A stretch of 43,932 bases of DNA from Conidiobolus incongruus B7586 (lineage: Eukaryota): NCBI GenBank assembly GCA_000697335.1, contig JNEM01013818.1:1-43932 (forward strand), given 5' to 3'. Below are positions 4,494 to 43,932 of this stretch, piece after piece. The first letter of the stretch is position 1, and each line of letters opens with the position of its first letter. A program made the translations under genes and the position numbers. The notes under the pieces are model-generated. The model was given only the letters and a program-made list of their open reading frames with translations. It was not told the origin of the DNA and searched no databases.

Positions 4494-4608
4494 TAAATAA
4501 TTAAACTTGAAACAAAAACAAAAAATCCAAGATAGCTATATTAATTAAAAAAAGTAAAAGTAAAAGTTTAGACTGATGACTTATTTTATAATAATTTCAA
4601 CATTTCAG

Positions 4609-5300
4609 ATTGTAGATTTAGTTATGCTAGACTAGATTCAGATGAGGAATACACTGATAAAGGATTAGATGGGAATCAATCTTTGGTTAAGAATGAGGTT
4701 GATGATTATAAACCTATTAATGAGAATCACTCCATGAATGAAAATACATTGAATGACCTTGAATCTGTTGACAAAGATAATTTAAGTGGCTTTATTGATT
4801 ATAACAAAGATGATGAAAATGATCCTGAATTTATCAATTTATCAAGTGAATTCAAATTAATTATCTATATATTGCTACTATATTTACATATTGAAAGTGG
4901 ATTTGTCTATGAAATCATTCAGTCTTTAAGTTAGCTCTTTTTACTATTATCAAATCCCTTGTGTATAACTATTTTGACTCAACATTTCTAGAAAATATTT
5001 ATTCCTCCCCATCACAAGGTTACATCCATCATTTTAAATAATATGTTAATACATTCAAGGATATGGACCGTTGTATCAAAATGTATAAGCATAGTCTGAT
5101 CCAAAGAAGTATTTGTAATTCACAGTTTTTGATAAAATTTTCGTAAATATAGAGCAATCAAATGATGTATAATTCAATTGGATAATATGTCAAGATCTCC
5201 TTATACATTTCCATCAGAGTATCATAGTGAAATGGTGTACCAAGTTTGTAATCGAGAAAACTATTTTGCTACTTAACAATTTAAACTATCTGGAAAAAAA
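4609..5300 (+). pseudogene. Degenerate coding remnant, acidic; possible continuation of the upstream gene
   Basis: CAG acceptor at 4608 opens the frame that includes ORF 4683-4934 (D/E/N-rich). Stops accumulate downstream. Confidence 0.35.
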
Positions 5301-9207: not shown

Positions 9208-11615
9208 TTAATCCACTGTAGGAGATATACTCATAAGAATTTTCAGCCATTCCAAGCCATCAAACGATCCATGTTGATTTTGAATACTTAAAGGACACGG
9301 CCCTGAAGCGAATAATAAACTAGGACACTCTCTTTGCAATTGATGATAATGAAGGTGAAATAGAGTAATCGCATCGGTTGGTACTTTAATCGGCACTGGA
9401 TTCCAATTTAACACCAAACTTTGAGAAAAATTCTGTTTCATTCTTGCAGGATTTGGATGAAAGTTATTTCGAATTTGATCCACTTGATAGGGAAGTAAAA
9501 CTCCAAGCTGTAGAAATAAATCAGAAAGACTGTGTAATATGCTAAGTAAGGTAGAAACCATGGGTGGAATTAACTGATGACAGTGTGGGAAGCCATTATA
9601 GAGTCTTTGGAGTAGGTATGGCATTCTCATAAAGAGGAGTAAAGGTGGTTCAATTTTGTCAGGATGATCTGGATCATAGCTTGTAACCTTGGAAAGTCCA
9701 ATAAAACATTTAGAAAATTGATCCAGAGTAGTGTCAGTTTCAGAGGTAGTGAATTCTCTAGGAGAGAGTAAATTCAATTTTACTTGATGAAGAGATCTAT
9801 TTTGTTGAATAAATCGGATATAATCTGATGGATCCTCTTCTTCACAGATTAAATTCATCTCCCACCAGATATAGTTATTCATAAAAGTTGTAGTTAAAGG
9901 AAGTTTTGAGGTAATTTGAGATTCTGTATCAATAGGCTGACTTTGAGGAACAAGAGCTGAAACAAGAAAAGGCTGCTTGTCAGGATCGGTAAGATTTTCA
10001 GCAGATTCTAGCAAATCCAACATATTATTAGTATTAGGCATTGAAGCTTGAATAAAATCTCGTTTGAATATGTCCCACCCGATAAAATCAGCTTCTGTCG
10101 GAGTAGGTTTGGTAACAGGTGAATCCGACTGTTTATCTTGAAAGATCTGTAATAGGCAGTGTATTGTAAGGTAGTCACCATCTCTTTTAATCATATATTG
10201 ATGCATGAATATATCTTCATCGTTATATGAAGCTTCATCTTGAAACAAATAAAAAGGTTGAGTATAATCAATTAGTTGTTTCAATATATCGTGGCCATAA
10301 GCTTCATCTAAGTCTCTATAGCAAATCCTATGAATACACTGCGTTAAAGGCAAATTGGGATCAAAGTTGGGATTTGATCCTAAATACATATTAATAGATC
10401 TGGATTTAAGATATTTAGGATCTGACCAATGCACTTGGTGAGTAAGATGTGGTGCATTCAATGCTCTACAATAATTAAATCTAGAGAGTACAGTGAGATC
10501 TTTAGATTCCAATTCGTTGTCAATTTTTAATCGTTTTTCAACTATTTCTGATGTAGGTGAACTAGGTTCCTTAATAAGATTGATGCTGTAAAGGTCCCAA
10601 TGAGACATTGCTAATTGCTGAATTTGAGATGGTGCGTCCAGATAACTCATAAAAGTAGTTTCTATCACTCCAAAGCCACACTCCAAGAACTCTTTTTTTA
10701 GTTGAGGAAGTTCGAAATCTTTTTTATATGGACAACAGTTAATGCAAACAGCCTGTATTTCCAATTTAGGTGTATCCCTATTGAATATAATTAGATCAAA
10801 TTAATATACATTCTTATTTAATCAAATACGCTTTCATTTGACCCAAATATTGATTGATTAAATAGTGGTTTAAAAGGACCGTTAGATCTGGTACAAATAT
10901 TGGGGAACTAAAAAATCAGATTAATAAGCGTTATAATGTGTTTGAATATTCGCTATATTTCAAAATACCTAGTATCTTCGACCATTTCTAAACCTTTGAG
11001 TTCTCTGTCTATTTGTTCTTTCGATGCAAGCCTTAAGTATACGATTCTTAATAATTTTAAAGGCTTTCCGTTTTCTTGAATCAAATCAGCTAATAATGAG
11101 CTAATAATATTGTGGAGTAATAAAGGTTGAGGAGAGTTCGAAGGGGTTTTTTCAACGCTTCCCAATGATATAACCTGATTTGCCTTTGAAAACAGTTTAA
11201 TTTATCAACAAAAGAAAAGAAATAAATAAGGTTACTAGAGAATAAGAATTTGGATCTTGCCAATTTATGAAGTTATGATATCCAACATGAAACAGAGCCA
11301 ACTAAAAGTTAATTAGTTGAAATGTTGATATAAAAATGATAAATAAAAATAAAGATTCAAGCTAAGGGAAAAATGTTACCTCACCTTACTCCAACTTGGG
11401 TCAGTAATTTCACTTGTAATTCTAAAATATTCAAGTGATGCTTTTTGTAATTTGGAATAGGGTGGTAAAGTTAAATGAATTTGATTAGCGGTATCATTTT
11501 GTTTAGCAACAGCATTTAACTCATCAATTTGTAAATGCTCTTCAAAAGCTCTAGGACTTCCTTTATCTAATATGATGACAGTACCAACAGTGCTATTTTC
11601 TTGAGGCAATATCAT
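9208..11615 (-). CDS. Probable Integrator subunit 13 / Asunder-like protein, 5 exons, ~719 aa
   Basis: Exons 11615-11385, 11301-11236, 11183-10969, 10907-10830 and 10777-9208 splice in frame. Colinear motifs TVIILD, SLEYFRI, HWDLYS and HQYMIKRDGDYLTIHCL resemble INTS13 TVFVVD, SMEYCRI, HFDLAS and SHMLSSHGGEIFLHVL (recalled from memory). Confidence 0.65.
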
Positions 11616-19510: not shown

Positions 19511-20781
19511 CTATTGAAACATTTCCTTATACATCGCATGTAATTTAGTTGCTGCAACGTCGTTAGATGCTAGGAATACGCCAAAAGCTCTAGCAAATTG
19601 ATTACGATTGTTGATAGCCTGATCGTTAGAAAAGTGAGGATGGTTTCGGGTAAAGTTGTGAAATTCATTCAAAATCCAATTGATATCTGTAGGGCTAGGG
19701 TCATCATACTGAGGTTCTTTAGAATCCATAAAAGGCTGAAAATTGTTATCTATAAGGAATTGATTAGGTGACTGTGTAAACTGTTTTGGTGACTCGGGAG
19801 AAGCAGATCCCTGGAGAAGTGAGAGAAGATCTCTAGATTTTTTAGCCAAATCCTCCTGAGAATGGGGAGGTGATTGAGGGTAGGTGGGTAGTGACTGGTA
19901 TCGAAGTTTTGAAATGGAAGGTTTTTGAAATTCACCATATTGTTGAAGGGAAATTGACGGATCGTAGCTATATTCTCTATTTATATTATTATCTTGATAA
20001 CCTCGACCCACACTTCTAGAAGCTTCCATTTGATGGTCAGAAGCCTCCTCGGCAGTATCAGAATCATGGTAGAGTTTTTTGTTTCTAATACCACTCATAG
20101 TTTTTTTATTTTTGAAATGATTGGCATTTTGCAGTCTTGAAGTGCGGTTGGAAGATGTTCTTTGTGGGTTTCTAGACGGGCTGTACTGCTGAGCTATTGG
20201 TTGTTCAGGAGGTGGCTGGACAATACTCTTACAATGTCTTGAAAACACTGCGGATAGAGCTTGAATATCTGCTTCGTTATAAGTCCATAAGCAGCATACT
20301 TCCACTAAATAGATGATGAGTTAGTATAAAACGTTATTGGCTGAATAATGAATATTATTACTATCTTGATTTCGATACATAACAAACCTATCAGTGATTT
20401 CATATTGCAAGTCACGAGTAAAATATAAACTCAAATTAACAGTATTAAGACGATTTAAAACAAATAAACCAAAGCGGGGTTCAACAGATCTATAGGAATA
20501 AAACATTTAATATAATAAACAATATAGAGTCTCAATAAAACAGTACCTTTCAAAAACAATCAAAGGACCTTCAATTCCTTTACGAACCTAAATAGTAAAT
20601 AAAAATTAACAAATTACAAAATAAGGATGAAAATTGAAAATACCCAATCGCGAGTACCCTCCTTGATACGATATAAAGCGGCATGACTACAAACATAAAG
20701 GATGGAAACAATAGTGGAGTCATATCTCTTTAAAACTTTAAAGTTCAATTGGTTTCTGTATTGATCATCCAAATGTAACAT
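19511..20781 (-). CDS. DCP1: mRNA decapping factor Dcp1 (EVH1 domain plus disordered tail), 4 exons
   Basis: LNFKVLKRYD..SHAALY..W|VRKGIEGPLIVFER|SVEPRFGLFVLNRL..CLWTY matches the Dcp1 EVH1 signature. Confidence 0.92.
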
Positions 20782-27273: not shown

Positions 27274-27666
27274 TTAGTTGATTAAGTGAAATGGTATAGG
27301 AATAGTATCTTCAGCAGTATAAGCGTCATCAATTGCCTCTTCAAAGCTTAAATTACCGGTTTCTAAATTACAAGTGATTAAATAAGCAGATTCTAAATAT
27401 ACTCGAAAAACAATGTGATATGCAACTGGTAATTTGGCCATATGAATTACTTTGATTTTGTGATCTTCAAAGGACATCTTATCAACAATGAATAACACAC
27501 TCTTATTAGCAGGACCTCTATCTTCATCAAGATGATCATTGTAATCGATTATTTCCTCATCTGTAGCATTTAGCATATTAATATAGTGAAATTTAGCACC
27601 TTGTATACCAGGAAGAGCAAAATCATCTTTATAAGGCTGTTAGCTAAAATAAACTTGGATAGTCAT
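27274..27666 (-). pseudogene. DUF6924-like small protein with an in-frame stop at codon 9
   Basis: ATG at 27666 is in frame with ORF 27274-27576, with TAA at 27642-27640. VLFIVD..FRV..CNLETGNLSFEE resembles the DUF6924 C-terminal motif (FVAD..FR..NNLxxANMDFEEF), recalled from memory. Confidence 0.5.
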
Positions 27667-31739: not shown

Positions 31740-33257
31740 TTAGTGTTTAACGGTTACAATGCGGCATTTAGGAGGAAGAGGAGGATTACTGGAGGAGCTA
31801 ACGGGAGAGGAAGTATTTGGTACAACATAAGGTCCAGTAGGGATTGCTGTAGGGCCAGGGGTACTGGATTCTGAAACAAGGTAAGGACCAGTGCTGATCT
31901 TTGTAGTAGATGAGATGTTGGATGATCCTGAAGGTGGTACATTGGAGATGATGGTAATTGACAGGTGATGACTAGTAGGAGATGGTGTAGTTGATGAGAT
32001 GGTAGATGATCCTGAAGGAACTACACCTGAAACAGTGGTGGATGATTGAGGATAGCCATTAGAAGACAAGGCGGTTGATGAAACAATAGTTGATGTGCCT
32101 GATGGCACTACATGTGGAGTAGAGGTTGATGATTGGGGATAACTAGCAGAAGATTTGGTCGTTGGAGCAATGCTTAATGAACTTGATGGGATCAAACTCG
32201 ATATAATGCTAGACTTGCTAGTGGTGGATGATTGGGGATAACCTGTTATAGAAGAGCTAGTGGTAGACTTCTTAGTTGATGGATAAATAGAATTTGATGT
32301 AGTAGTAGGTGATGAAATTTGCGCTAGAGTTGTGGTAGAAATATTTGTAGTTGTAGAAGTCAACGTAGTGAAATGGCTAGGAGATTGGTTACTAGTTGTA
32401 ACAGTGGTAGTGGTAGTAGTAGAAGTAGTAGTAATTGTAGTGGTCACAGCAACTGAAGGATTTTTACTAATAATATCATTAATAAAATCCCTATATAGTG
32501 CGACTTTAGTATAGACCGACGGTAGATCTTTAGTTCCACATCTGGTGCCAAAGCTTACAGTACCAATCAAATAGACGTCATTAGGACTTTGGTGATAAAA
32601 GAGTGGGCCTCCAGAATCTCCCATACAAGGATTCTTCAATCTAGAACCAGCGCAGAGCTGCTTGTCTTTCAAAACTTCACCGGAGCCCAGCCATCTCTTA
32701 TAGCATTCTTGGAAGTTAGCAACCTTAAGATCAGCCTTCTGCAATTGAACAGCTTTTTTGGAATCGACACTGGTGATACCATATCCCATAGCTAGAGCTT
32801 CTGTACCTTCCTTACTAAAGGTACCATCATCCAATTTGACTGCAGAAGGGTTGAATGGGACTGTTCTGCCAGGATCCTGAGGTTTAATCTTAATTAACAA
32901 AATATCATCATAATTGGGATTCTTAGAATCGAAGCCAGGGTGAGCTATCTGATCCTCCGCTACATAAATAATTTCATTATTCTTGTCTGACAAAGTACTT
33001 GTATCTTTGGTGCCACTATTAGCGAATACTATCTTCAAATCGCCTTGATTAGTCGCCTTACAGTGAGCAGCAGTCAATATAAAGTTCTCTGCAATTCTGG
33101 TGCCTGTACAATCCTGTTTGCCGTTGGTGAATATATTGGCTACATAGTTATAGTCATCAGGGTTTTGAACGTCAGTACCTCCAATAATTTCTGGAGCCGC
33201 TGCTACCATTTTGAAGGTAGTCAAAGCAATCACTAATGACTGAATGATTGGATTCAT
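31740..33257 (-). CDS. Secreted S1A (trypsin-fold) serine protease with a long Ser/Thr-rich tail
   Basis: Signal peptide, IIGG mature N-terminus, LTAAHC, DDILL, GDSGGP. About 235 aa of S/T/P-rich tail. Intronless. Confidence 0.95.
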   Translation of the reverse strand: MNPIIQSLVIALTTFKMVAAAPEIIGGTDVQNPDDYNYVANIFTNGKQDCTGTRIAENFILTAAHCKATNQGDLKIVFANSGTKDTSTLSDKNNEIIYVAEDQIAHPGFDSKNPNYDDILLIKIKPQDPGRTVPFNPSAVKLDDGTFSKEGTEALAMGYGITSVDSKKAVQLQKADLKVANFQECYKRWLGSGEVLKDKQLCAGSRLKNPCMGDSGGPLFYHQSPNDVYLIGTVSFGTRCGTKDLPSVYTKVALYRDFINDIISKNPSVAVTTTITTTSTTTTTTVTTSNQSPSHFTTLTSTTTNISTTTLAQISSPTTTSNSIYPSTKKSTTSSSITGYPQSSTTSKSSIISSLIPSSSLSIAPTTKSSASYPQSSTSTPHVVPSGTSTIVSSTALSSNGYPQSSTTVSGVVPSGSSTISSTTPSPTSHHLSITIISNVPPSGSSNISSTTKISTGPYLVSESSTPGPTAIPTGPYVVPNTSSPVSSSSNPPLPPKCRIVTVKH

Positions 33258-34509
33258 ATAAGTTAATTGACTAACTTTAATACAAAAAAGTTATAAATGA
33301 TATTAAATTAAATGTCTAGTTAATATAAATGAATCTTCAATTATAATTGAAGACCAACTAAAATTAAATTAAATTAAAATATAAACCGGATTACAGGGTA
33401 TTAAATAGGTTGATAACGAATGTATAATTATCAAGTAATAGATCACACAAACCTCTCAATTGTAATACTCGAGACTTCAACCTTATTTAAACCCATGAAT
33501 AAAAATTTTGATACCGCTAAAATTAACGCCATTGGCATGAATACATTATCAATCCAATGAAAATACTCGTCTTGTGCATTCAATGAATGTAAAAATTGAT
33601 TTATTTTATGCAGCTAGCTATTTTTTGCAAATTAAAGTACCAGTAAAAACCTAGTAATATGATGTTTTATCATCTATCAACTAATACTTTATTTTGAAAA
33701 TTAACATTATATATCGAATAGATAAAGTTGTATATTTTCTTAGTAAGTATTTATTATCATAAACTACATACAATAGTAACAAACCAATCTCTATACTTTT
33801 AATATATCGCATTAATCACAATAAAAGGAATCTGCTAATCTCCACATTATGACTCATAGTTTATATCCTTGAAATACTATGCTTGATATAAAACTTTTAA
33901 ATTAAGTTGCAATCCATCTAATAAAAGTTTAATAATGTATATTGATTAGTTTCAATAAAAAAAATGCTATTATGACTCGACAATTGATTTCTGTTTAATA
34001 TTTTTAAAATTATTATGTATCATACTATAGATAATTAGGATAACATTAAAGTGAATTGTTTTTAACATTCCTAATCACAAATAAACAGAAAATAAAATAA
34101 TATTTATTTTTATCATATTTTACAATTGATAGATATGATATAATAGTTTGAATATCAAGTACATCAGTATCTAGAACTTGGCAACAAATTAATCGTTAAC
34201 TGAATATTTCAATTAGATCATTAAAGATGCCTGAGTAATTACCAATTTCTATGAAATGCAAAGCACTAAAATATACAAGTTTATTAGTACTTGTGAAAAT
34301 TTCATCAAGTAGTCTTTTTTCTAAGCCATGATTTAATGAATACAAATAAAATGTAAAAGTGATATTATATGGGTATGATTTAATGCAAATTAATTTTGTT
34401 TACAAACATTTTTAAAAAATATTTGAAAAATTTTTATTCTAGATCCTTAGAGAATTATTGATCTTTGAATGATTTTTGCTTATTTTGAATATATAAATAT
34501 AATTTTTCA

Positions 34510-38401: not shown

Positions 38402-40966
38402 TTAAAAGCTCCCTCCGCCAACTTTACCACCAAGTGATCCAGATCCCAAAGGTCCATTACTCTGCTGCAGAGGAGGATTTGGAAGAGGTGAGGGATTGCC
38501 AGACTGATTCAAAATTGGGTTAGGGTTAGGACCAGTAAAGTTGTTTAGTTGATTATTAGGAATTCCCTGATTGAAAGGGTTATTGGCACCGATATTTCCA
38601 ATAGAGTTTCCAGGTTGTTGCCAGTTCAAATTAGTGTTAGGGTTAAAATTTAAAGTAGGGTTATTGCTGATGAGTTGGTTTAAATTACCAGGTGCTCCTC
38701 CTCCCAAGTTCATGTTTTGATTGAAGTTGGGTAATTGGTGAGGGTTGGGGTTATTAAAATTGCCAAGATTATTGGAAGGATTGAAGCCGGTTCCAAAGTT
38801 TTGAGGGTTTAAAAAGTTATTAGGGTTTTGAAATTGATTACCTTGAGCGTTGGGATTTCCTCCAAAGCTACTGTTATTAGCGTTGTTGTTGCCCAACCAT
38901 CCAGAAATAGTGGCAAGACTTGTACCAGATCCTGAAATATTATTGAAGTTCTGATTGAAGCTGGGAGTGAATGGATTTGTACCAAAATTATTCAAGTTGG
39001 GGTTAGTACCACCAGGGTTCTGGCTAAAACTGGGGTTCAAAGTATTGGGGTTATTGTAAAAGTTAGGGTTCATGAAGTTTGATGGTTCTTGACCTCCAAA
39101 ATTGAATTGGTTACCAGCATTAAACTGTCCAAATGAAGTATTATTGCTAGGGTTCAAAGCGTTGAAGCGTCCTTGGTTGTGTTGATCATAGTTTTTAACA
39201 CTTGATACTCCTTTGATTGACCTGTGTTCGTCTTTGGAAGATGATCCAAATCCAAATAATGAGGAAGATTGACGCTGTAATTCCTCTAACTGAGTGACTT
39301 GGTCACGGTATAATTCTTTCTGAGCATCAGCAGCGGCTTTATCTACAATTGAAATGGCTGGTTCTTCCTGGAAGCTCTGATTACCTAATGAGGAGATAAG
39401 TCTTTGGATATACTGCTGCTGAGTGGGGAGATTTTCTCCAATGGGACGACCAGTCTTTTGGGAGTGCTTCTGACGAAGAGCAGTTGCAAACGATACAATA
39501 CTGCTATCTAAAAGTTGTTGAGCAATAGGGTCTTTGGTGACATTGCTAGAATTCAAAGGGTTGAGAGTAAGACTCTGCCAGACATATCCCACATCGGCGA
39601 TTTGTTGGACATAGTTAGCCAATTCAACATGATATTGGTTAGTAGAGAGATCAACACTCTGGAGAGGAGGATAGCTGTATCCGAGAAGGACATGGGCGTG
39701 ATCCTTCTTGACAGAAACAGCGAATGCGTCAGCCAAATTGACATCTGGTGCATCGCTCTGAAGAGTGACAACATCAGCATAGGGAGCAAAGTGACGAGCG
39801 CGAGAGATGGCGGCTTCGAGTGTATTGGCATACATATAGTATCCTTCTTGAGAGCGAGGAAGATTCCAATCCCAGAATACCTTATCCAAACCAAGCTGAG
39901 CGGCCAAATCTTTAGCATGATCCAAAGATGTGTTTCTAGTATTTTCCAACCATTGTTCAACCTCTTTAGCAGCTTGTCCGGGTGACTGACCAGCCTTGAG
40001 GCGAATAGCTTGGGCAATAGCGTCACGGTAAGTTAATACATTAGCACTATTCATCCATGAGTTGCGAATAAAGTTCAATTGATCAGGAGTACTAGCACCA
40101 GAAGCTTGAGCTTCGCGAAGAACTTCAGCTAGAGGTCTAGTTGGGACCGTGGCACCCAAAATGTAAGGATGATCACGAGTGTCAAGGTTGCTAGCAACAT
40201 AACCAGCTTGGAGAGATGACAATTTGGCAAAAATCACGGTTTCAGTATCCATAATATCGGATTGGGCACGGAGAGCAACCAAGCGATTAATATGCTGACC
40301 AACAGGATAAAGAACTTTGATATTGGCTTGATTCAAAATGGAGGAATAAGTTTGCTGAGCATCATCCAATTGAATACCGGCAGCACCACGTTCGATCAAT
40401 AGACGTGAGAGACGCATCAAAGAGGGAATATTGGAACCCACAAGGTCAGCGTCAACTACGATAGGACGGTAGAAGTCAACCGGCTCGGGAAGTTCCGATT
40501 CGAATCCAATCTCACTTCTCAAGCGGTGACGTAGCTCAACCTGACGACGGTCAAACCACACCTGGGAGCGGAGAATTTGATCGACTTTGCGGGGTAAAGT
40601 ACTTAATGGGGTTGCTGGAGAGGGAATAGGACTGCTAGGATCACCTTGCGTTTCAACAATCACCTGTTGATTGGAAATGTAAGACAATTCCAAATTCTGC
40701 GTACTGGTAGTGAGGACTTGGGAAGGGTTCCAAGTGTCAAAAGCAACAGTTCCAAGACCCTGGGCTTGGATTCTATTTAAAATCGTCCAAAGTTTTTTGC
40801 TCAAAGGAGCTCCAGCATGCTCAAGTTTAAGTGTGCCTCTCTTGGACACAATAATATCGGCGTTGTAAGGACGACGCGTATGAGTGAAACGATCACTTCT
40901 CCATTTTTGTTCAAGTTGATATACTTGGTTTTTGAAATTATTGCCATCATCTGAAATAAACGACAT
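38402..40966 (-). CDS. Isocitrate lyase-like pseudoenzyme with a C-terminal N/F/G/P/Q low-complexity domain, 854 aa
   Basis: ICL-fold motifs RFTHTRRPY..IVSKRG, RPIVVDAD, ERGAAGI, HINRLVALRAQSDIM, RDHPYILG, PRSQEGYY, FAPYAD. The catalytic KKCGH motif is absent. Intronless. Confidence 0.9.
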   Translation of the reverse strand: MSFISDDGNNFKNQVYQLEQKWRSDRFTHTRRPYNADIIVSKRGTLKLEHAGAPLSKKLWTILNRIQAQGLGTVAFDTWNPSQVLTTSTQNLELSYISNQQVIVETQGDPSSPIPSPATPLSTLPRKVDQILRSQVWFDRRQVELRHRLRSEIGFESELPEPVDFYRPIVVDADLVGSNIPSLMRLSRLLIERGAAGIQLDDAQQTYSSILNQANIKVLYPVGQHINRLVALRAQSDIMDTETVIFAKLSSLQAGYVASNLDTRDHPYILGATVPTRPLAEVLREAQASGASTPDQLNFIRNSWMNSANVLTYRDAIAQAIRLKAGQSPGQAAKEVEQWLENTRNTSLDHAKDLAAQLGLDKVFWDWNLPRSQEGYYMYANTLEAAISRARHFAPYADVVTLQSDAPDVNLADAFAVSVKKDHAHVLLGYSYPPLQSVDLSTNQYHVELANYVQQIADVGYVWQSLTLNPLNSSNVTKDPIAQQLLDSSIVSFATALRQKHSQKTGRPIGENLPTQQQYIQRLISSLGNQSFQEEPAISIVDKAAADAQKELYRDQVTQLEELQRQSSSLFGFGSSSKDEHRSIKGVSSVKNYDQHNQGRFNALNPSNNTSFGQFNAGNQFNFGGQEPSNFMNPNFYNNPNTLNPSFSQNPGGTNPNLNNFGTNPFTPSFNQNFNNISGSGTSLATISGWLGNNNANNSSFGGNPNAQGNQFQNPNNFLNPQNFGTGFNPSNNLGNFNNPNPHQLPNFNQNMNLGGGAPGNLNQLISNNPTLNFNPNTNLNWQQPGNSIGNIGANNPFNQGIPNNQLNNFTGPNPNPILNQSGNPSPLPNPPLQQSNGPLGSGSLGGKVGGGSF

Positions 40967-42223
40967 GATTCAAATTGTTGACTATATATTTAAAGAATAA
41001 ATAATAAGAATAATTGATTTTTCAATGGTTGACTTTGAATGAATCAAACAAAAAATATTGGAATGAATCAGGGATAGCAAGAATGACGTGACAGGTATTT
41101 ATATTCATCACTAATTCTAATTATTGACGTAAATATCAATCCAATTTAAAAAATTATTCAATCATTTTAGCAAAGCCACTTCGGTCACTCAATATCCCTT
41201 TATCATTTATACATTTTCTAAATCAATCCAATTTTTCTATTAATGGGAATAAAATTAAAGAACCAATCAGAGTGGATCATATTATCCCAATTAAATATCT
41301 AAAATTTTAGTATGATAAAATATGAATTTTAAAATCAAGTGATATATTGTTAAAAATGTATCATATTTCTATCAAATATTAAAATCTATAAATGTATAAT
41401 TAGAATAAAAAATTCTTATACAAAATAATTTAATAATTAAAATTATCCCAATATTAATTGCTTAACGATCTAAAATTTAATTAAATTATAAACTAATTAA
41501 TATTTTCATAATCTCCTTTTAAAAAAAGTATTTGATTATTTATTATATTAATTTTTATCATGATAGTTCATTTTCTTATACATTTTATTATATTTTAATT
41601 TGGACTTATATTAAAATTTGTACCATCAATTATTTAATATTGTTTTATTCAATAATTATTTTTATATAAACTATGCTGTAAAACTCCGTCGTTTACAGTT
41701 CCATAGGTTTCAGAGTGGTTCGAAATGATGTTGGGATTAGCATCGTTGGAAGTCAATTTTAAACAAGTAAAAATTGTAAACTCAGAGAGATCTACCTTTA
41801 TTTCTACAAGGGATTAGATGTATTTATATTATAGAAAATGCAACTAAAATATTAATTGCATTTATCAAAGCATCATCTATTAACCTGAACATGCCTAATT
41901 TTATGACTCATATACAACAAACTAAACGTATAAGTTTAAAATTTGATAGAAAATATTTATATTTTTTAATTTTATTTAATTTTATAATATTTGATATATT
42001 ATTATATTAAAATTATATTAATCAAAAATTTTATAGTTAAAAATACTGAAAATATTGTAAATTGAAATTTTTTATTATGTTAAATTGCAATAATATTCTC
42101 AGTAGATTGAATTGATATTAATATTAATATTAAAGCCAAATTAAAAAGACGAAAAAATAAAAAAAATGATAATAAAAATTTATGTATATTAAATATTTTA
42201 GGATGTAATGAACTGCTAGATAA

Positions 42224-42816: not shown

Positions 42817-43932
42817 TTATAATGCTTTATAACCTAATATATTAGGCGTATCTTCTGAAAATCCAGTAATCGCTTCCTTAGTACCCATCTTGATCAAAGT
42901 CGAGAGAATATTTCCTGGAACAGTTCCTTCTGCGAGTAAACTAGCGGCCAATCCAGCAATATGAGGACATGACATTGATGTTCCACTTTTGGTTAAGGTG
43001 CCTGTTGGCTTGTTAGCAGTGGAAACAACTCCAACACCAGGGGCCAGGATATCAATACATTTACCAAAGTTAGAGAACCCAGCTTTAACATCATTGATAT
43101 TAGTTGCACCAACTGCAATAACTCCTTTGGCAGTAGCAGGTGACTTTTTACAAGCATCATAGTTATTGTTCCCACCAGAGACAACTACTACAATACCTTT
43201 AGCAATAACTTCTTCAACAACCGTATTGAGAAGCTCGTTGATTGGTTCAAATGAGATACTCATACTGACTACATTTCCTTTAAGACCATTTGCATTCTTA
43301 GCAACCCAGTTGAACCCAGCAATTGCATCACTAGCTGAACCTTTACCCTGATCATTCAAAACCTTAACAGCAATCAAATTCACTTTCTTAGCAACTCCAT
43401 AAGTTTTTGATCCAATAGTACCGGCACAATGTGTTCCATGACTATAGACATCAGTATCTGAATCAGAATGGACATTTGTTCCAAATTTAGCACGACCTTC
43501 AAAATCAGCATGATTAACATAAATCCCACTATCAAGAACATATACATTAATGCCTAATCCTGCATTGGGGTTGTAAATATAGGTAGATTGTGTTGTAGAA
43601 TTTAACTTCTCACGATGAGATATTCTAGCAAGACCCCAAGGAGCATTTTTCTGAACTTCATCTACTTCAGCAATTTGGTCTGGAACGATTGAAACGACAT
43701 TGGGTAATTGTTTTACCTTCTCAAGAGTCTTGACATCCAGAGTAGCAGATATACCATTTAACACAGCATCATATTTATGGTGGATTTCATTGATGCTTGA
43801 TCTATCGACAAATAAATCGGTAACGGAGGCAACATGGCTTTCGAAATCAATACGACTGTTACGATCGAATGCTACAATATATTTATCTTTGATTGATATG
43901 GACTGACTTAGCTGTAAGAATAGTGAAATGAA
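42817..43932 (-). CDS. Subtilisin-like S8A (proteinase K-type) protease; 5' end lies beyond the window
   Basis: The frame is open to the window edge (FISLFLQLSQS..KYIVAF, I9 prodomain). APWGLARIS, VLDSG, HGTHCAG, SGTSMSCPHIAG. Confidence 0.96.
   Translation of the reverse strand, partial: FISLFLQLSQSISIKDKYIVAFDRNSRIDFESHVASVTDLFVDRSSINEIHHKYDAVLNGISATLDVKTLEKVKQLPNVVSIVPDQIAEVDEVQKNAPWGLARISHREKLNSTTQSTYIYNPNAGLGINVYVLDSGIYVNHADFEGRAKFGTNVHSDSDTDVYSHGTHCAGTIGSKTYGVAKKVNLIAVKVLNDQGKGSASDAIAGFNWVAKNANGLKGNVVSMSISFEPINELLNTVVEEVIAKGIVVVVSGGNNNYDACKKSPATAKGVIAVGATNINDVKAGFSNFGKCIDILAPGVGVVSTANKPTGTLTKSGTSMSCPHIAGLAASLLAEGTVPGNILSTLIKMGTKEAITGFSEDTPNILGYKAL

What the first reader, a model, noticed from the sequence alone, without database searches (positions are those of the whole stretch)
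9208..11615. Probable Integrator subunit INTS13/Asunder in a fungus
Seen: a clean 5-exon gene of ~719 aa. Compared from memory, colinear blocks resemble animal INTS13 (~700 aa): TVIILD/TVFVVD, SLEYFRITSEI/SMEYCRIMYDI, FINWQD/LNSWTQ, LAMSHWDLYS/LVQQHFDLAS, HRICYRD/YRISPVD, DGDYLTIHCL/HGGEIFLHVL. Known: Integrator handles snRNA 3' processing and Pol II termination in animals and is absent from yeasts. Inference: this lineage may retain the INTS10-13-14 module or a fuller Integrator complex.
Basis: inference. Interest (0 to 1): 0.7.

Follow-up and report, generated by a model that had tools for sequence, protein, structure and literature searches.

The report
Heavily diverged fungal Integrator subunit 13
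An intact five-exon gene of an early-branching fungus encodes a protein whose first third matches animal Integrator subunit 13, so it is likely a heavily rewritten copy of this transcription-termination subunit, which yeasts lack, although the parts that animals conserve best can no longer be recognised.

Summary
The gene is there as described: minus strand, five exons, GT-AG introns of 52-83 nt, 719 aa. Its only detectable relatives are two Conidiobolus-type proteins (76% identical) that cover exon 5 alone. Pfam, PDB sequence, Atlas and fold searches name nothing. A profile of tool-fetched animal INTS13 proteins aligns end to end over residues 2-260 (the vWA domain). None of 64,000 shuffles, 65 natural ORFs or 10 bacterial vWA proteins reached that score, and three separate thirds of the profile land in order. 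Corrected for about 25,000 families this is E of roughly 0.1. The beta-barrel, the best-conserved part in animals, lands where expected but scores no better than chance; the helical domain and the cleavage-module motif give no signal. Verdict: probably a very diverged INTS13 (about 0.75). Partners and function are untested, because no genome is held. Earlier unchecked notes of this scan already report INTS2, 7, 8, 10 and 14 in other early-branching fungi, so fungal Integrator is not new here; no note mentions INTS13.

The parts
11385..11615 (-). Exon 1 (77 codons): start of the vWA-like domain with the first strand and the EY-RI helix
   Evidence: codon score 0.38 bits/codon; profile columns 1-78 land on residues 2-82, 1 of 300 shuffles as good
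11302..11384 (-). Intron 1, 83 nt, GT-AG
11236..11301 (-). Exon 2 (22 codons), holds W91, which aligns to a near-invariant INTS13 tryptophan
   Evidence: skipping it lowers the profile score from 30.0 to 19.7
11184..11235 (-). Intron 2, 52 nt, GT-AG (a second in-frame acceptor lies 9 nt downstream)
10969..11183 (-). Exon 3 (215 nt), middle of the vWA-like domain; 3' boundary not certain
10908..10968 (-). Intron 3, 61 nt, GT-AG; alternative boundaries are possible
10830..10907 (-). Exon 4 (78 nt)
   Evidence: its last codons are mirrored at the start of P0001
10778..10829 (-). Intron 4, 52 nt, GT-AG
   Evidence: same junction implied by P0001 and by the read-through start of P0002
10585..10777 (-). 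Exon 5, first part: end of the vWA-like domain (residues 198-261)
   Evidence: profile tail lands at residue 260, Z 4.1, 1 of 200 shuffles as good; 86% of positions identical in the three Conidiobolus-type sequences
10033..10584 (-). Exon 5, putative beta-barrel and linker (residues 262-445); position fits INTS13, sequence match not significant
   Evidence: barrel core placed at 322-451 with Z -0.7; 16 of 85 near-invariant animal positions identical
9208..10032 (-). Exon 5, C-terminal region (residues 446-719) and stop codon; conserved between the Conidiobolus-type sequences, probably helical, no charged linker and no detectable CMBM
   Evidence: (low confidence)

Best explanation
The gene encodes a 719-residue protein whose first 260 residues align with the vWA domain of animal INTS13, and it is likely a very diverged INTS13 orthologue with the usual order of vWA domain, beta-barrel and helical domain. 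Shown: intact gene, INTS13-like N-terminal domain, conservation along exon 5 between related fungi. Inferred from the human structures: it would fold as an entwined dimer with a fungal INTS14, which would hang on INTS10, and the dimer would form the tip of Integrator's tail module that pushes on the DSIF clamp and upstream DNA to help release RNA polymerase II after INTS11 cuts snRNA or promoter-proximal transcripts. Also inferred: the barrel loop that binds animal transcription factors and the C-terminal linker and motif that grip the cleavage module appear to be rewritten or lost, so the module would be tethered mainly through INTS10 and INTS15 and would not use the animal factor-binding code.
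For: Reference family fetched by tools and verified: 8 of 8 ORFs tested hit PF10221 at E below 1e-119, one hits PDB INTS13 at E 4e-164, 120 further PF10221 proteins. hmmsearch of a 20-sequence profile on the joined protein: model 13-265 on residues 11-261, 7.9 bits, single-comparison P 5.8e-5, better than 500 of 500 shuffles. Domain-wide alignment of the vWA profile: score 30.0, residues 2-260, Z 7.0-7.6 under five gap settings; 0 of 64,000 shuffles reach it (best 24.6), tail estimate P about 4e-6, and only 13% of shuffles end within residue 300. Three thirds of the profile aligned freely to all 719 residues land at 2-82, 78-150 and 165-260. Controls: 0 of 65 natural ORFs (best 11.4) and 0 of 10 bacterial vWA proteins (Z -1.2 to 1.7). 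11 of 24 near-invariant vWA positions are identical. Pairwise, 34 of 34 references with a whole N-terminal domain (of 41 representatives) score above shuffles, Z 1.9-6.8. Anchor positions 17, 62, 91, 256 against 15, 61, 91, 254 in a mammalian record; length 719 against 712. The barrel core falls freely at 322-451, directly after the vWA match. Mechanism: passages of PMC7347597, PMC11062913, bioRxiv 2024.01.24.576984.
Against: No Pfam family on any of the exon pieces or on P0001 and P0002; no INTS13 among PDB sequence hits at E up to 10; no relative outside Conidiobolus among 1.84 billion representatives. The barrel is the best-conserved region in animals (85 of 173 columns at least 90% conserved, against 24 of 254 in the vWA domain), yet it scores at chance level here (Z -0.7 to 1.1; 16 of 85 identical). 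Helical domain and CMBM: Z about 0. hhalign of exon 5: probability 0.6%, E 0.1. phmmer against 140 references: best E 0.71. In local HMMER mode 1 of 601 controls beat the candidate under two profile settings, and the third setting gave no signal (94 of 601); the best of the three settings was used afterwards. Multiplied by 24,736 Pfam families the tail estimate is E about 0.1 (my arithmetic). INTS14, Ku70, Ku80, INTS6 and M1AP were not available as competing profiles. No partner gene could be sought.
Confidence: 0.75

Rival explanations
1. A chimera or orphaned derivative: an INTS13-derived vWA domain joined to a C-terminal two thirds of other origin, or so changed that the protein no longer works in Integrator.
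For: Signal stops at residue 261 although the downstream barrel is the most conserved part in animals; the segment right after the vWA domain is the least conserved even among the three Conidiobolus-type sequences (56%); no charged linker (at most 12 charged residues per 40, against 15-28 in 32 references).
Against: The barrel core and the helical profile fall in the expected order when placed freely (322-451 and 467-599); the combined vWA-tail, barrel and helical profile on exon 5 gives Z 2.9, 2 of 200 shuffles as good; total length fits.
Confidence: 0.11
2. Another member of the Ku-like vWA-barrel-helical group (INTS14, Ku70, Ku80, INTS6 or M1AP) that resembles INTS13 only through shared ancestry.
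For: These proteins share the architecture (passages of PMC7347597, and PMC11377751); none was tested as a competing profile.
Against: Ku and INTS13/14 share only 7-10% identity (PMC7347597), whereas the N-terminal domain aligns at 19-32% with INTS13 references; the D-x-S-x-S site that human INTS14 uses to bind INTS10 is absent after the first strand (PMC7347597); no Pfam family of any kind was hit.
Confidence: 0.06
3. An unrelated lineage-specific protein; the INTS13 likeness is the best of many chance matches recalled by the first reader.
For: All blind library searches are blank; family-level E is about 0.1 after correction; one block-or-residue shuffle beat it in local mode.
Against: 0 of 64,000 shuffles; match starts at the N-terminus and spans the whole domain with near-identical spacing; three independent thirds in order.
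Confidence: 0.08

Closest known systems
Animal INTS13 / Asunder / Mat89Bb (Pfam PF10221; PDB 6sn1_A, 8pk5_A, 9ep1_A, 8rbx_m)
   Same: About 700-720 aa; N-terminal vWA domain of about 260 residues that aligns end to end with matching spacing and 11 of 24 near-invariant residues; barrel-like and helical regions fall in the same order.
   Different: Below Pfam detection; barrel and linker motifs that are nearly invariant in animals are not kept (16 of 85); the loop that binds animal transcription factors (human 267-279) is not recognisable; no charged flexible linker and no detectable CMBM; the C-terminal 270 residues look ordered and conserved instead.
INTS14 and Ku70/Ku80 (same vWA, barrel, helical architecture)
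   Same: Shared architecture by the literature (PMC7347597, PMC11377751 passages).
   Different: No D-x-S-x-S MIDAS site as in INTS14; sequence likeness is to INTS13; not tested against these profiles.
C. coronatus hypothetical protein CONCODRAFT_79525 (KXN69031.1; P0001)
   Same: 76% identical over exon 5; same last junction.
   Different: The public model is 525 aa and lacks the equivalent of residues 1-194, which carry most of the INTS13 signal; whether its genome holds exons 1-4 was not checked (one search found no protein matching exon 1).

Membership tests
INTS13 (PF10221) | Match to the Pfam model PF10221 above its cut-off | tested here: inconclusive
   No hit on any single exon or piece, or on P0001 and P0002; the joined protein was not scanned against Pfam, and an in-script family profile gave only 7-10 bits, far below the 25-bit cut-off.
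INTS13 (PF10221) | N-terminal vWA domain of the INTS13 type (human 1-256) | tested here: met
   Sequence profile only: residues 2-260, Z about 7, 0 of 64,000 shuffles, 0 of 65 natural ORFs, 0 of 10 other vWA proteins.
INTS13 (PF10221) | Central Ku-type beta-barrel (human 257-389) with its conserved motifs | tested here: inconclusive
   Right position, chance-level score; 16 of 85 near-invariant positions; model of 255-450 has pLDDT 39.6.
INTS13 (PF10221) | Alpha-helical domain (human 413-564) | tested here: inconclusive
   Placed at 467-599 with Z -0.9; all-helical in a low-confidence model.
INTS13 (PF10221) | Flexible charged linker followed by the cleavage-module-binding motif (human 649-694) | tested here: inconclusive
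   CMBM profile Z 0.3 and misplaced; no charged stretch like that of 32 of 32 references. The same test also misses the barrel, so absence is not proven.
INTS13 (PF10221) | Entwined dimer with INTS14 and membership of an Integrator complex | not testable with these tools
   No genome held; no other Integrator gene recognised among the window ORFs scanned.
INTS14 | D-x-S-x-S MIDAS site after the first vWA strand | tested here: not met
   Residues 17-21 do not form the motif; requirement from PMC7347597 passages.
Ku70/Ku80, INTS6, M1AP | Profile match to these families | not tested
   No sequences of these families were fetched; Pfam scans of exon pieces were blank.

The most novel reading that the evidence does not exclude
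This fungal lineage keeps an Integrator tail module whose INTS13 has held on to its vWA domain but has rewritten the surfaces that are nearly frozen in animals (the transcription-factor-binding barrel loop and the cleavage-module tether), a natural experiment that separates the module's core termination role from its animal-specific recruitment role.
Probability: 0.35. Interest if true: 0.65.

Novelty: new variant of a known kind. Interest (0 to 1): 0.42.

Why it matters
Reviews call Integrator absent from yeast or restricted to metazoans (passages of PMC7347597 and PMC9006982). An INTS13 in an early-branching fungus would show that the tail module, not just the nuclease core, predates the animal-fungal split and was lost later in yeasts. 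It also shows how such genes are missed: the public model of the nearest relative lacks the exons that carry the signal, and the rest has drifted beyond Pfam. If the reversed conservation pattern is real, it points to which INTS13 surfaces serve animal-specific regulation.

Tried and rejected
Pfam scans of exons and pieces at E up to 1 and 10: no family. PDB sequence searches with exon 5, the two-sequence profile and exon 1: nothing relevant. HMMER over 1.84 billion representatives: only P0001. Word search with exon 1 among longer proteins: 0 of 43 candidates at E up to 10. Metagenome scan for close relatives: 0 of 250 pattern matches. ESM Atlas: no usable feature hit for P0001 or exon 1; its model of P0001 has pLDDT 0.30. 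AlphaFold2 on exon 5 (pLDDT 32.0) and on residues 255-450 (pLDDT 39.6; strands at 256-265, 321-328, 372-376, 385-396, 399-410, helix 425-442, but helices at 273-302 and 341-357) gave unusable models; fold searches with them gave no match at E 0.001 and best Z 5.2 to unrelated folds, INTS13 not listed; these carry no weight either way. No RNA holder was listed. No Rfam match in the window, so no snRNA gene to inspect. No complex was predicted, since no partner sequence was at hand. No fungal intermediate was recognised among the 15 metagenome loci examined or among the named rows of the best 120 of 1301 hits; the other 1181 were not shown, so fungal PF10221 proteins may exist in public records. 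Eight literature searches listed no paper on a fungal INTS13; PMC8938319 says in passing that Integrator acts in animals and fungi. PMC4406282 and PMC4408249 were not held. No supplement was read; the alignments in the supplement of PMC7347597 may bear on the range of the family.

Full report
Gene. The minus strand carries five exons (11615-11385, 11301-11236, 11183-10969, 10907-10830, 10777-9208) that join to 719 codons and a stop; the four introns are 52-83 nt, GT-AG and AT-rich. A codon model from seven other ORFs in the window scores the five exons positive in frame and the four introns negative in every frame. Intron 3 is the least certain: 12 stop-free splice combinations were found among those tried, one of 704 aa scores better against INTS13, but the disputed stretches have exon-like GC. 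No RNA run was listed. The gene lies between an RNA polymerase subunit gene and a phenylalanyl-tRNA synthetase beta gene.

Relatives. Exon 5 finds one cluster among 5.8 billion proteins: C. coronatus KXN69031.1 (P0001, 525 aa, 76% identical) and an unnamed 535-aa member, P0002. A profile search of 1.84 billion representatives found nothing more. The window therefore comes from a Conidiobolus-like fungus (inference from that name). P0001 begins three residues before the exon 4-5 junction, so the public model lacks the first 194 residues of the model here. Blind searches name nothing: Pfam, PDB sequences, ESM Atlas, and two AlphaFold2 models too poor to use (fold searches).

A direct test. A short-motif scan of metagenome contigs returned 90 loci, among them many INTS13-like ORFs and bacterial chance matches. 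Eight of eight ORFs tested hit PF10221 at E below 1e-119, one matched PDB INTS13 at E 4e-164, and the alignment pulled 1301 proteins, of which the best 120 were listed, all with PF10221. The named rows are animals. From these, 41 representatives below 70% identity were aligned.

vWA domain. HMMER aligns the first 20-sequence profile (positions 13-265) to residues 11-261 at 7.9 bits, P 5.8e-5 for one comparison, above 500 of 500 shuffles. With a vWA-only profile, two build settings gave 6.8 and 9.7 bits with 1 of 601 controls higher, and a third gave no signal; the best setting was used from then on. Aligning the whole 260-column profile with free placement gives score 30.0 on residues 2-260, Z 7.0-7.6 across gap settings. 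None of 64,000 shuffles reached it; the tail estimate is P about 4e-6, and 13% of shuffles end within residue 300. Against 24,736 Pfam families that is E about 0.1, or about 0.01 with the N-terminal position (my arithmetic). None of 65 natural ORFs, 10 of which carry the selecting motif, exceeded 11.4, and 10 bacterial vWA proteins gave Z from -1.2 to 1.7, so the match is not a generic vWA signal. Three thirds of the profile, each free to land anywhere, fell at 2-82, 78-150 and 165-260. Eleven of 24 near-invariant positions are identical and three more are conservative. Anchors sit at 17, 62, 91 and 256 against 15, 61, 91 and 254 in a mammalian record.

The rest. The barrel core lands at 322-451 and the helical profile at 467-599, in the expected order, but at chance-level scores; using all three fungal sequences does not help, and hhalign gives 0.6%. 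This matters, because the barrel and its linker are the most conserved part of animal INTS13: 85 of 173 columns are at least 90% conserved against 24 of 254 in the vWA domain, and only 16 of the 85 are identical here. The segment after residue 261, which in human binds transcription-factor motifs (bioRxiv 2024.01.24.576984, passages), is the least conserved part even among the three fungal sequences (56%). The hand-picked barrel anchors have similar spacing but are not independent evidence. The C-terminal 270 residues are 74-78% conserved among the fungal sequences and lack the charged stretch seen in 32 of 32 references; the hydrophobic minimum overlaps the top of the reference range. The CMBM profile finds nothing, which proves little given that the barrel is also missed.

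Mechanism. Human INTS13 has vWA (1-256), barrel (257-389) and helical (413-564) domains, forms an interlocked dimer with INTS14, and grips INTS4-9-11 through the CMBM at 649-694 (PMC7347597, passages). The dimer is the tip of a tail module anchored through INTS10 and INTS15 and is proposed to displace the DSIF clamp during termination (PMC11062913, passages). The simplest reading is that this protein fills that place in a fungal Integrator, with the animal factor-binding loop and perhaps the CMBM tether rewritten. Only the gene and the vWA homology are shown; dimer, complex and role are inferred, and no genome was available to look for partners.

What is known. PMC7347597 calls Integrator absent from yeast, PMC9006982 calls it restricted to metazoans (passages), and PMC8938319 mentions animals and fungi in passing. 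PMC11377751 (passages) lists the Ku-like paralogues; PMC7471841 (passages) added nothing. Eight searches (listings only for the other papers) showed no paper on a fungal INTS13; two older reviews were not held, and no supplement was read. Earlier notes of this scan, unchecked by me, report INTS2, 7, 8, 10 and an INTS14-like gene in other early-branching fungi, with INTS10 already named in public records; none mentions INTS13. They raise the prior for this reading and lower its novelty.

Verdict. Observation confirmed; interpretation partly supported. Probably a very diverged INTS13 (0.75), against a chimera or orphaned derivative (0.11), another Ku-like paralogue (0.06) or chance (0.08). Interest 0.42.

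Noticed in passing
window 38402-40969 (-): An 855-codon ORF that matches isocitrate lyases over residues 10-490 (E 1e-81) but has the KKCGH loop of the solved enzyme replaced by unrelated residues, followed by about 300 residues rich in N, Q, P, G and F with no Pfam family. That this loop is catalytic is recalled. Possibly an inactive isocitrate lyase with a prion-like tail.
   Followed up: partly
window 31743-33290 (-): Trypsin-family protease with a hydrophobic N-terminus and a tail of about 240 residues rich in S and T; looks like a secreted or wall-attached protease.
   Followed up: no
window 42820-43932 (-): Subtilisin with an I9 propeptide, running off the end of the window.
   Followed up: no
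window 27277-27639 (-): A 121-codon ORF hits DUF6924 above its cut-off (E 1e-5).
   Followed up: no
window 19514-20320 (-) and 4572-4931 (+): Open frames of 269 and 120 codons with no Pfam family.
   Followed up: no
P0001 (KXN69031.1): The public gene model of the nearest relative appears to be cut short at its 5' end, starting at the last codons of the exon 4 equivalent.
   Followed up: partly
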